A stretch of 64,000 bases of DNA from Mobula birostris. Taxonomy: Eukaryota. Positions 38,701 through 41,700 of the stretch are shown here, in pieces. The stretch lies in contig NC_092386.1 in the NCBI RefSeq assembly GCF_030028105.1, positions 42,462,347 to 42,526,346 of the forward strand, written 5' to 3'. The position numbers and the translations under genes were made by a program. Under the pieces are notes generated by a model, which was not told the DNA's origin, ran no database searches, and worked only from the letters and a program-made list of their open reading frames with translations. Position 1 is the stretch's first letter. Every line of letters begins with the position of its first letter.

Positions 38701-41700
38701 AAAACCCAGTAATTTTAACTGATGCCAAGTATACATCCTGAAAACAATATTCATTCAATGTCACTCTGCTACTCTTCATGCATATGCTTCGCACTAAGTA
38801 CCAACATCGCAAAATTTAAACCAATTACCTTTCACACTAGGCTTCATACCTTGACAACTCAATTCCTCAGGTCACTAGTTTTATTTAAAAACTTACCCTC
38901 TGGGTGGAGGTGGAGGTGGGAGAACACGGCCCCCACCTCTGCCACCTCTTCCTGTGCGTGGCATAGGTGGAGGTCCCCTACGGGTTGGTGGACTCATGTC
39001 ATCATAAGCATCTCTTCTGGGTGGGGGCATGGGCCTACCACCCCTGTTTGGCATCCCCAAGGGACCCCTACGCTCATATCCAGGTGAAGGGGGGTGGGGT
39101 CCACCCCTACCACGCATTTGAAAAGGCATTGGACGCCTTCCTCTGTCATCAAACATCATTGTAAAGCCACCATAATCATAGGTTTCGTCATAGAAATTTG
39201 GATCATATGGCTGAGCACGTCCTTTGACAGGAGACTTAAAATTAAAAAGAAATTACTGTGAATCACATGTAAAGCTTTAAAATATTTCATTAGTCATGTT
39301 GCTAATAAAATTCCAAGTAACATTTTAAACATTCAAGAAGTCACGTTCCCTTGCTGCAACCAAAAAGAACAAGCGGTTAACCAAGTCATTAAATTTAAAC
39401 ATTGCCCTGCAGCAAATGCAAAATGGAATAGCACCCACCTCTGCCAATAAGCCCAGTATAATCTTGATGCATTCAACCACTCTATCAGGCTTTCCACCAA
39501 GGAGAACTACTCTATCAGTTGAATGAGGACAACATTCCTGAAACAGTTTAATTGTTGTCTGTGTGCTCTGAAATGAAGGAAATTTTCAATATAAAGATTA
39601 GTTTAAAAAAAAGACTGGTTACCAATGACCATTAATTTAAATACTTACAATAGCAATTACTGAAGTTGGAGAAACAAAAACATCCTAGCTGTTCTTCACA
39701 AACTGTGGATATCAGTCATGGCCCTTCACCCTGAAAATCTACTTTCAGAGTAATAAAAACTAGTGTTAAATGCAACTTACTTCTCTTAGTTCCTTTATCT
39801 TTACTCCTTTGACACCAATAATGCTTCCAGCTTGGCTTTGATGAACCAACATCCTCAGTTCACAGTCAAAGTCTTTTCCTTTATAGTGCTGGTACTGTAA
39901 GGTCAAAAGTTTGACAACAGAGCATAAAATTCTTGATCTAGTGTAAAATCAACTGTATTAAAATTAAAACACATGGCTCATCTAGCTTAAGGAGCAAAAC
40001 AAAGCCATGTCCATTTAAACGGGCCGATGCTTTTGTTGATGAACACAACTCACCTCTTCCAAAGTTGGGATGATCTTCGATAATATGTCACCAATTGTCT
40101 CAATATCTGCATTTATACTCAATATGCTGCCAATTATTTTTTGAAACCATTAACGATTTAAGGAGGAAGGAAAATAAACAAGTGAGTAAGCCATTCAAAG
40201 CACATGGAAACAACAATTTTAACAATTACTTAAAAATTTATTTTATAGAATATTTAGTAAACCCCATTATAAATATTTACTAATAAACATGCAATAATTA
40301 ACTAATTAACATTTCAAATTAAATCTTTGTAAAAAAATGGGTAATTGGAAGGGCTCAGATTAAGTGGGCAAGAAAAACGACGAATAGCTGAGAGCAGAAA
40401 GTGGAAAATTCATTTTCCCCACCACCAGTAATTTGAGAAACCCCTGGAAATATTAGCAATTTTGGCACACCTTCTCATAGGCAAAAGCAGAAGAGGTATG
40501 TGAGTATCATGGAGAACAGTATTAAAAAAGGTATTTGACAGAAATTTGGAGAAAAGTTAAGAAACTAGTCGTGGAAACAGCACTACTATGCCCCTGTAAG
40601 AAATTAATACAAAACAAAAGACAAAACAATGAGACAGAACAAATGAAAGTTGGGAGTGGGTGACAGAAGTTAGCTTGGAAAACTATGAGAGGTAATGGGT
40701 GTGGGGTGGGGTGGAAGGGAGGGAGCAAGGTGGGCCACAAGGACAGTGCAAGATAGGCAGATTTAACAAATGATTAACAATGCAGCAAAAATGCAACACT
40801 TGAAGCTGTGCTCCTTCCATTAAAATGAATTAGTGGATTGCTCTGGGTGGGCAACTCACGTAATAAAGACCAGCCACAAAAGACTTAATGGGGAAAATAG
40901 ACAGAAAAATAACTTGAACAGTACACTTTTCTATAAGGGGCTACTAATTAATAACAACAAATTCAGGTTATAAAAGATACAATTCCTTGTTCTAATCAGG
41001 CAGTGAGTCATAAACTGTTGGGACATACCGCTCGGGGCCACTGCTGTCTGGGACTGATACACTGGCATTGTACTGCATTGGTCACAAAGGCGTTCGTGGT
41101 TGTTGGCATTGGGCAAGGGCATTCAGTGACGTTCAGGTATTGGTGCCCATTTGGCATTTGAGCACATTATGGGCATAGCCAACCAGGGTATTCAGATGGG
41201 TGTTCAAGGGACAGATGGGTCAACGTCATGATGGGCAACGCAGGGAACAAGTCGATCCAGTACAAGGGCAACGGAGATAAATGGCCAAAAAAACAAGGAG
41301 AGGGAAGAGGGGGGAAAAGGAGTAAATTTTAATTGAATAATATTATAAAATCTATTCTCATCACTCTATATATAATTAAATATATATATATATCCTTTGT
41401 ACAGATTTCTGAAGACTCTACACAACAACGGAAGCACTTCATAACTGCACTTAAAAAGTTAACAATATTCCTCATAAATATGGGAAATAACTATATTGAG
41501 TAATCAATTCAACAAGACTTTAACATTAAACCTAGCGTCTAATGGGCATCTATTTACTCTAGTTACTCAAATTCTGTTTAGCTTCATTTTTACAAAACAT
41601 TGCCTCCCATTATCTATGGAAACAGTTAACACTGTTCTATACCCAATTTCATATCAAGCATTCTTCTTTACATAAAGCAGTCTTTGTCCTTCACGTACAT

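What the first reader, a model, noticed from the sequence alone, without database searches (positions are those of the whole stretch)
41029..41351. 277-nt AG-free, CCC-studded zone before a frameshifting HNRNPK exon: candidate autoregulatory switch
Seen in sequence: no AG dinucleotide on the transcript strand from 41351 to 41075. The acceptor itself has a poor pyrimidine tract (gtgaccaatgcag), while a strong tract lies ~215-250 nt upstream (41322-41287). About ten spaced CCC motifs (UGCCC, UUCCC, ACCC) lie in between, in a GC-rich patch within an AT-rich intron. Established: hnRNP K KH domains bind C-rich RNA, long AG-exclusion zones mark distant branch points, and mammalian HNRNPK is recalled to overlap ultraconserved elements. 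Inference: hnRNP K binding here causes skipping of the 44-nt exon, a frameshift and NMD, a feedback loop dating to early jawed vertebrates.
Basis: partly seen in the sequence, partly recalled or inferred. Interest (0 to 1): 0.7.

Follow-up and report, generated by a model that had tools for sequence, protein, structure and literature searches.

The report
Ancient splicing control region of HNRNPK
In a ray, the 277 bases in front of a short frame-shifting exon of the hnRNP K gene contain no AG and match a stretch that is ultraconserved in mammals; it likely holds a far-upstream branch point and binding sites through which hnRNP K would limit its own level, and two human Au-Kline syndrome variants are predicted to act by creating an AG inside it.

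Summary
Observation confirmed; mechanism half right. The 277-nt AG-free zone (41351-41075, minus strand) is real (2 of 100,000 shuffles), and a 35/36 pyrimidine tract lies at -250 to -215. It precedes the 44-nt exon equal to human HNRNPK c.214-257. An amniote orthologue (L002) keeps it: 267 nt AG-free, 87% identical. It is the orthologue of human ultraconserved elements uc.264 and uc.263, so the sequence itself is catalogued. The conserved block is larger than the finding, about 1,045 nt, and takes in most of intron 6. All 6 GCCCA words in it (an in vitro hnRNP K motif) are conserved. Au-Kline variants c.214-35A>G and c.214-77G>A both create a new CAG on L002's numbering, as a distant branch point predicts. 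Exon skipping was not seen. Contigs of four runs point instead to unspliced intron 6, which carries a conserved stop codon. Autoregulation is untested, and one ENCODE-based screen that included HNRNPK did not name it. The scan found this zone before in another fish (e1-9343237). Known kind (PTBP1 exon 11 type); moderate interest.

The parts
41075..41351 (-). AG exclusion zone, 277 nt, at the 3' end of HNRNPK intron 5 (intron 42145-41073, 1,073 nt)
   Evidence: 267 nt in L002
41323..41340 (-). Candidate distant branch point region (adenosines at 41334, 41329, 41323 = -262, -257, -251); weak consensus, inferred from position just before the tract
   Evidence: candidates in both species at -262/-257 and -260/-255; alignment; not mapped by lariat
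41287..41322 (-). Distant polypyrimidine tract, 35 of 36 pyrimidines
   Evidence: conserved in L002; one human uc.264 primer lies on it
41075..41286 (-). GC-rich spacer with 10 CCC runs, 5 TGCCC and 3 GCCCA (41236, 41174, 41114); likely sites for hnRNP K or PCBP
   Evidence: motif from PMC11269977; no stable fold (z -0.35)
41222..41325 (-). Stretch spanned by the published uc.264 primer pair (104 nt here; exactly the stated 102 nt in L002)
41109..41109 (-). Base aligned to human c.214-35 (A>G would create a CAG acceptor)
   Evidence: variant in PMC9606382
41148..41148 (-). Base aligned to human c.214-77 (G>A would create an AG; CAG in L002)
   Evidence: variant in PMC9606382
41073..41074 (-). 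Acceptor AG of the 44-nt exon, with no adjacent pyrimidine tract
41029..41072 (-). 44-nt coding exon ([15 protein letters not shown], part of KH1) = human c.214-257, exon 6 counting from the exon 5 of PMC7503209
   Evidence: 43 of 44 identical in L002
40935..41144 (-). Equivalent of human uc.263 (c.214-70 to about c.257+94); 185 of 210 identical to L002
40992..41028 (-). Conserved start of intron 6; read-through gives Tyr and a stop at codon 12, as in human p.Ile87Tyrfs*12
40854..40900 (-). Conserved second donor (TAC|GTGAGT) 169 nt after the exon's donor in both species, preceded by a conserved tract and AG; candidate poison extension, micro-exon or decoy
   Evidence: use not observed
40336..41028 (-). 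Conserved part of intron 6 with three more conserved GCCCA (40852, 40735, 40369) and a conserved donor-like word at 40471
40054..40126 (-). 73-nt exon 7; its acceptor also lacks an adjacent tract (100-nt AG-free run)

Best explanation
This is a conserved splicing control region of about 1 kb around the 44-nt exon 6 of a ray's HNRNPK gene: the spliceosome likely branches about 255-262 nt upstream and scans the AG-free zone to the first AG, while hnRNP K or a related poly(C)-binding protein likely binds the GCCCA words on both sides of the exon and would divert part of the RNA into a non-coding form, most likely unspliced intron 6 with its conserved early stop. Shown: the AG-free zone, far tract, motif array, conservation to an amniote and to human uc.263/uc.264, and the stop codon. 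Inferred, with my odds: distant branch point 0.85; C-rich sites bound by hnRNP K or PCBP 0.6; regulated unproductive splicing of some kind 0.6; output through intron 6 (retention or the +169 donor) more than exon skipping 2:1; hnRNP K itself closing a negative loop 0.4.
For: AG-free 277 nt here and 267 nt in L002 despite 30 substitutions and 20 gap columns. Tract-to-AG identity is 217 of 250, against 53% for upstream intron and 54% for shuffles. uc.264 primers give the stated 102-nt product on L002; uc.263 coordinates cover c.214-70 to about c.257+94. Human variants c.214-35A>G (splice effect stated) and c.214-77G>A (positive methylation signature) match L002's bases and both create CAG; 13% of single changes there would. 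The -77 site lies upstream of the nearest proximal branch candidate (-49/-51). GCCCA, the ENCODE Bind-n-Seq motif of hnRNP K, occurs 6 times in the 1,045-nt block, 6 of 6 conserved, against 3 in the other 5,789 nt (binomial p 7e-4, not corrected for base content); L002 has 12 of its 13 in the block. Run X1 holds contigs over intron 6 (40108-40542, depth 888-1505) beside spliced exon 7-8 joints (4275 and 3519). In X5, X9 and X15 (3 of 3) the spliced contig ends exactly at 40127, the base shared by exon 6 (..CG) and the intron (..AG), while exon 5 and the +169 donor end in C. The stop at codon 12 of intron 6 is in the same place in ray, L002 and human.
Against: No branch point was mapped, and the candidates fit the consensus poorly. 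No binding or knock-down data were seen. HNRNPK was among the inputs of Pervouchine 2019 in both cell lines but is absent from its main text and candidate lists (that screen also missed known cases, and retention and unannotated donors may escape it). Human loss of one copy causes disease, so any feedback does not restore dosage. Conservation rests on one outgroup locus plus two primers and one probe. TGCCC also fits PCBP and YGCY binders such as MBNL (recalled). Unspliced intron 6 may be slow splicing without regulation; the runs are only guessed to be RNA, contig depth is a poor measure of level, 34 laid records were not shown, and a filter drops some records. The RNA result of c.214-77G>A was not seen, and both variants were mapped through L002, not the human sequence.
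Confidence: 0.5

Rival explanations
1. One reading: hnRNP K binds the CCC array, blocks scanning from the distant branch point, exon 6 is skipped, the frame shifts and the RNA is removed by NMD.
For: Same anatomy as PTBP1 exon 11 (AGEZ 381 nt, branch point -351; PMC1431707). Skipping gives a stop nine codons into exon 7. GCCCA sites flank the exon on both sides.
Against: No exon 5-exon 7 loose end in 4 of 4 runs, and the contigs of 3 runs break at 40127, not at 40126 where a skip branch would break them. This is weak: contigs drop rare forms and NMD would deplete this one. Weakening the exon's donor in human (c.257+5G>A) is listed as read-through into intron 6 (p.Ile87Tyrfs*12), not skipping. 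HNRNPK is not among the essential-exon candidates of PMC6547761.
Confidence: 0.17
2. Cross-regulation or timing device: the block is read by other proteins (PCBP1/2, MBNL, PTBP on the far tract) or makes introns 5 and 6 rate-limiting, for example to hold HNRNPK RNA and its intronic miR-7 precursor in the nucleus until a signal; hnRNP K itself is not the sensor.
For: The motifs are not specific to hnRNP K (TGCCC 7 conserved copies, YGCY 9-11). Both exon 6 and exon 7 have acceptors without an adjacent tract. mir-7 lies in the gene's last intron. The autoregulation screen did not name HNRNPK, and hnRNP K had the fewest edges in a K562 splicing-factor eCLIP network.
Against: The best-conserved words spell TTGCCCA, which contains the hnRNP K Bind-n-Seq motif; that paper could recover the motif only when it was seeded. 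Ultraconserved switches in splicing-factor genes are often self-regulated (PMC6547761).
Confidence: 0.23
3. Constitutive splicing architecture with another cause of conservation: the exon is always included, hnRNP K or others act as needed enhancers, or the block is conserved as DNA (enhancer).
For: In 90 of 120 protein hits exon 5, 6 and 7 peptides join directly, and none printed shows an insertion there. No regulated isoform was found in the paper searches.
Against: The depletion of AG is strand-specific and ends exactly at the acceptor. Conserved spare donors, the conserved stop and the intron 6 contigs are not needed for constitutive splicing. A DNA enhancer would not explain the AG-creating disease variants.
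Confidence: 0.1

Closest known systems
Human ultraconserved elements uc.263 and uc.264 in HNRNPK (uc.263 hg19 chr9:86590283-86590490, PMC7729199 supplement row; uc.264 primers, PMC5288176 supplement row)
   Same: Orthologous sequence: uc.263 covers the last 70 nt of the zone, the exon and about 94 nt of intron 6; the uc.264 primers span the far tract and first CCC motifs.
   Different: The papers seen treat them as transcribed non-coding RNAs on arrays, with no splicing role. The ray copy is 87-88% identical to the amniote one, and conservation extends about 600 nt further into intron 6.
Distant-branch-point exons with long AG exclusion zones: PTBP1 exon 11, PTBP2 exon 10, GABBR1 exon 23, Tpm1 exon 3 (Gooding et al. 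2006, PMC1431707)
   Same: AGEZ over 150 nt, tract at the far end, regulatory motifs between tract and exon, frame-shifting short exon in a splicing-factor gene, predicted vulnerability to new AGs.
   Different: The branch candidates here fit the consensus poorly, the motifs are C-rich instead of CU-rich, and skipping is not seen. HNRPK has no hit in that paper's text or two supplements (the supplements may list exons by id only).
Autoregulation by intron retention with conserved introns and decoy splice sites (FUS introns 6/7, SF3B1 intron 4; seen only as search listings and abstract starts)
   Same: Highly conserved intron after a KH/RRM-coding exon, spare conserved splice sites, unspliced intron seen in RNA contigs.
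   Different: No proof here of nuclear detention, of decoy function or of feedback.
Earlier finding of this scan e1-9343237 (another fish genome)
   Same: 271-nt AG-free zone before the same exon; same open question on autoregulation.
   Different: That note says a distant branch site is mapped in human (Taggart 2017, PMC5378181 supplements); I did not see that paper. This report adds a cartilaginous fish, the intron 6 half, the uc.264 primer match, the variant mapping and the contig evidence.

Membership tests
Distant-branch-point (long AGEZ) exon | AG-free zone of 150 nt or more ending at the acceptor | tested here: met
   277 nt, and 267 nt in L002
Distant-branch-point (long AGEZ) exon | Strong pyrimidine tract near the 5' end of the zone, none at the acceptor | tested here: met
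   35 of 36 versus 11 of 20; same profile in L002
Distant-branch-point (long AGEZ) exon | Branch point consensus just upstream of the tract | tested here: inconclusive
   Weak candidates at -262/-257/-251 here and -260/-255 in L002
Distant-branch-point (long AGEZ) exon | Lariat mapped at the distant site | not tested
   Pineda and Bradley search only the last 250 nt and their files are held cut (one read at the intron's last base); Mercer files cut, no chr9 hit. e1-9343237 cites Taggart 2017 for a mapped site; not read.
Distant-branch-point (long AGEZ) exon | New AG in the zone disrupts splicing | tested here: inconclusive
   Two pathogenic human variants create CAG on L002 numbering; a splice effect is stated only for -35, and no RNA data were seen
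Ultraconserved elements uc.263/uc.264 (orthologue of) | Position and sequence match | tested here: met
   Coordinates; primer product 102 nt in L002 and 104 nt here; array probe read against L002 and window
Ultraconserved elements uc.263/uc.264 (orthologue of) | 200 nt or more identical in human, mouse and rat | not testable with these tools
   A definition on mammals; the ray copy is 185 of 210 identical to L002
Autoregulatory AS-NMD switch of an RNA-binding protein | Alternative event that makes a premature stop | tested here: met
   Skipping, read-through and the +169 donor all give early stops
Autoregulatory AS-NMD switch of an RNA-binding protein | The unproductive form exists in RNA | tested here: inconclusive
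   Intron 6 contigs in X1 and contig breaks at 40127 in X5, X9, X15; no skip join seen
Autoregulatory AS-NMD switch of an RNA-binding protein | Cognate binding motifs, conserved, near the event | tested here: met
   6 of 6 GCCCA conserved; motif match only
Autoregulatory AS-NMD switch of an RNA-binding protein | [quoted passage not shown] | not testable with these tools
   Not named in PMC6547761 although tested
Conserved structured RNA element | Stable fold with covariation | tested here: not met
   z -0.35 and +0.82; no Rfam match in the region; best shared stem not better than shuffles, no compensatory change

The most novel reading that the evidence does not exclude
The function of uc.263/uc.264 is an hnRNP K self-sensor older than the split of sharks and bony vertebrates: hnRNP K coats GCCCA arrays on both sides of exon 6, stalls a distant-branch-point acceptor and drives intron 6 retention or a poison donor. 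The 250-nt zone is a hot spot for deep-intronic AG-gain Au-Kline variants, and blocking the switch with an antisense oligonucleotide could raise hnRNP K from the healthy allele.
Probability: 0.33. Interest if true: 0.72.

Novelty: new member of a known kind. Interest (0 to 1): 0.45.

Why it matters
hnRNP K is dosage-sensitive: loss of one copy causes Au-Kline syndrome (PMC7503209, PMC9606382). My searches found no described autoregulatory event for it, unlike many other hnRNP and SR genes. The ray-amniote comparison narrows a mammalian ultraconserved region, where perfect identity hides what matters, to testable parts: a branch region, a tract, six GCCCA sites, a stop and a spare donor. The clinical point is direct: single changes that create AG anywhere in about 250 nt upstream of c.214 (13% of possible changes on L002) are predicted to be damaging and lie outside usual exome reporting. 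Gooding et al. predicted such variants in 2006 and knew of none.

Tried and rejected
Chance or repeat origin: rejected (single copy in G000). The second long AG-free run (33117-32887) is the pyrimidine-rich part of a dispersed repeat. RNA structure in the zone: none beyond shuffles. Pairing of the acceptor (41080-41071) with a conserved intron 6 stretch (40787-40778; 10 pairs, same offset in both species, pairing probability 0.4 and 0.64 in local folds): not significant (227 and 272 of 1,000 shuffles as good; 2 of 20 column shuffles better) and no covariation, so kept as a lead only. Paralogue comparison: G000 gave no second HNRNPK, only two PCBP-type loci. More orthologues: one hit in metagenome contigs, 0 in genome contigs and 0 in viral contigs; L002's record could not be extended. 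Run search: no holder on record as RNA; 18 of 20 listed runs hold the stretch, of which 4 were laid, on 39700-40760 only. No exon 5-exon 7 loose end and no contig in intron 7 were seen; neither proves absence. RBFOX (TGCATG) and CCAAMCC-type words: 0 in the zone (motifs recalled). Papers not held: two attempts at Ni et al. 2007, one at Murdock et al. 2021. Uninformative on HNRNPK's own splicing: PMC10287951, PMC4761882, PMC12022257 (the last reports healthy homozygous mice with a loxP in an 'intron 6' of unstated position). Paper searches that found no description of this zone or of HNRNPK autoregulation: (open-licence library only; listings and abstract starts unless named). Supplements held cut and bioRxiv supplements (closed) may bear on the branch point and on eCLIP self-binding.

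Full report
Gene and organism. The region lies in an HNRNPK gene on the minus strand (exons mapped) with mir-7 in its last intron. One exon's translation is 98% identical to sawfish (Pristis) hnRNP K, 91-94% to other rays and sharks, 83% to chimaera and about 70% to bony vertebrates, so the window is from an elasmobranch, most likely a ray. The stretch 40900-41400 is single-copy in the 4.0-Gb genome, and a search with one exon gave no second HNRNPK, only two PCBP-type loci. The 44-nt exon 41072-41029 equals human c.214-257 (coordinates from PMC9001983 Table 1, passage seen; arithmetic); I call it exon 6, counting from the exon 5 of PMC7503209 (first half of text read).

The observation. The minus strand has no AG from 41351 to 41075, the longest such run in the window. 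Two of 100,000 base shuffles of the zone were AG-free. The far tract (41322-41287) has 35 of 36 pyrimidines, the last 20 nt before the acceptor 11 of 20. There are 10 CCC runs between; against dinucleotide shuffles CCC runs are only modestly enriched (p 0.036), TGCCC and GCCCA more so (p 0.011, 0.02; eleven motifs were tried, no correction).

Conservation. An exact-pattern scan of metagenome contigs gave one vertebrate locus, L002. It is amniote-like: a published human array probe matches it at 59 of 60 bases by eye. It is not human: its intron 6 is 886 nt against 872, and the next coding exon follows exon 7 after about 368 nt against a 543-nt human intron. L002 keeps a 267-nt AG-free zone. 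Identity from tract to AG is 217 of 250, against 53% for upstream intron and 54% for shuffles. BLAST finds one block, window 41380-40336, 76% over 1,067 columns, so about 700 nt of intron 6 belong to the element. The human counterpart is catalogued. uc.263 (hg19 chr9:86590283-86590490; PMC7729199 supplement row) spans c.214-70 to about c.257+94. The uc.264 primers (PMC5288176 supplement row) sit on the far tract and the third CCC motif and give exactly the stated 102 nt on L002 and 104 nt here. A ray-amniote match dates the element to the last common ancestor of jawed vertebrates (about 450 million years, recalled). It rests on one outgroup locus.

Distant branch point. The layout is that of Gooding et al. 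2006 (PMC1431707, passages): long zone, tract at the far end, motifs between. Candidate adenosines lie just before the tract at -262, -257 and -251 (L002: -260, -255) but fit the consensus poorly. Pineda and Bradley 2018 looked only within 250 nt of acceptors (passage), and their and Mercer's files are held cut, so these give no verdict. Independent support comes from patients. Choufani et al. (PMC9606382, passages and a supplement row) list c.214-35A>G (splice effect confirmed, unpublished) and c.214-77G>A (positive methylation signature). On L002's numbering the reference bases match, and both changes create CAG, adding 34 nt (frameshift) or 75 nt (early stop); 100 of 771 possible single changes there create AG, so two of two has a chance near 0.02. 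An AG at -77 is upstream of the nearest proximal branch candidate (-49/-51), which fits scanning from further away, although a new AG could also recruit a cryptic branch point. I put the distant branch point at 0.85.

Who binds. GCCCA is one of two ENCODE Bind-n-Seq motifs of hnRNP K (PMC11269977, passage; that paper recovered it only when seeded). The block has 6, three on each side of the exon, all 6 conserved in L002, against 3 in the other 5,789 nt of the gene; 12 of L002's 13 lie in the block. The most enriched conserved 5-mers are CGTTG, TGCCC and GCCCA. The zone has no stable fold, which suits single-strand binders. This favours hnRNP K or a PCBP, but it is a motif match and MBNL-type YGCY words overlap (recalled).

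What the switch would do. Skipping gives a stop nine codons into exon 7. Reading into intron 6 gives Tyr and a stop at codon 12 in the ray and in L002, the same as the human c.257+5G>A product p.Ile87Tyrfs*12. A second donor lies 169 nt downstream in both species. I laid 4 of the 20 listed runs (contigs, guessed to be RNA, four organisms and studies) on 39700-40760. X1 has contigs over intron 6 from 40108 to 40542 at depth 888-1505, 11-19% of its summed exon 7-8 joint depth (the tool warns that contig depth is a poor measure of level, and only 19 exon bases lie on the longest piece). In X5, X9 and X15 the spliced contig runs through exons 7, 8 and 9 but ends exactly at 40127. That base is G in both exon 6 and the intron's AG, while exon 5 and the +169 donor end in C, so the branch that breaks these contigs is not skipping; unspliced intron 6, or the G-ending donor at 40471, fits. 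In X15 an unspliced intron 8 piece at 0.8% depth did not break the main contig. The longer length of intron 6 may also keep its branch from being merged. No exon 5-7 join was seen, which proves nothing because NMD and contig building remove rare forms; 34 laid records were not shown.

Against autoregulation. Pervouchine et al. 2019 (PMC6547761, passages and supplement rows) had HNRNPK eCLIP and knock-down data in both cell lines and do not name it; the method missed some known cases. A bioRxiv network study gives hnRNP K only 2 edges in K562 (passage). Haploinsufficiency in people shows that feedback, if present, does not restore dosage. Nine paper searches found no description of this zone as a splicing element or of HNRNPK autoregulation, within an open-licence library.

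Verdict. A real, ancient splicing control region of a known kind, whose mammalian sequence is already listed as uc.263/uc.264 and which this scan met before in another fish. The distant branch point is well supported by anatomy and patient variants. Binding by hnRNP K or a PCBP is likely. Interest 0.45.

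Noticed in passing
window 39905-39894 (minus): Non-canonical TG acceptor. The exon 7-8 joint at 39903, after TTG and 9 nt upstream of the AG at 39895, is seen in 4 of 4 runs; the AG joint only in X1. It adds TLQ, and 4 of the 19 elasmobranch proteins P0001-P0019 carry TLQ (Narcine, Stegostoma, Heptranchias). It fits the TG-AG tandem class of PMC2374985 (RYK, SMARCA4, HNRPR at 9 nt), whose text does not name HNRPK. 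The genomic base was seen only in this window; L002 lacks it. Mammals have a 24-residue exon at this place.
   Followed up: partly
window 40900-40854 (minus): Conserved tract+AG followed 23-24 nt later by TAC|GTGAGT, 169 nt after the exon 6 donor in both species: possible micro-exon, poison donor or decoy.
   Followed up: partly
window 40660-40471 (minus): Strong acceptor-like tract ending in CAG near 40595, whose AG is not kept in the same context in L002, and a conserved donor-like AAG|GTGTGC at 40471 (14 identical bases).
   Followed up: partly
window 40227-40127 (minus): Exon 7's acceptor also has no adjacent pyrimidine tract and a 100-nt AG-free run (70 nt in L002), less conserved.
   Followed up: partly
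window 41080-41071 with 40787-40778: The acceptor is complementary over 10 pairs to a fully conserved intron 6 stretch, at the same offset in both species; not significant against shuffles.
   Followed up: yes
window 36573-36484 (minus): mir-7 hairpin in the last intron of HNRNPK (Rfam RF00053, 85 bits), as in mammals (recalled).
   Followed up: no
window 33700-32700 (minus): Dispersed repeat with several copies in the window and a short reading-frame remnant (LEEQHLIF; Penelope-like by recall); it holds the second longest AG-free run, 228 nt.
   Followed up: partly
window 37810-37737 (minus): Long C run (about 25 C) in the tract before a very short glycine-rich exon; another possible poly(C)-protein site.
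   Followed up: no
window 41660-41631 / L002 2534-2505: Isolated 30-nt island in intron 5, 87% identical to L002 (E 4e-5), 300 nt upstream of the main block.
   Followed up: no
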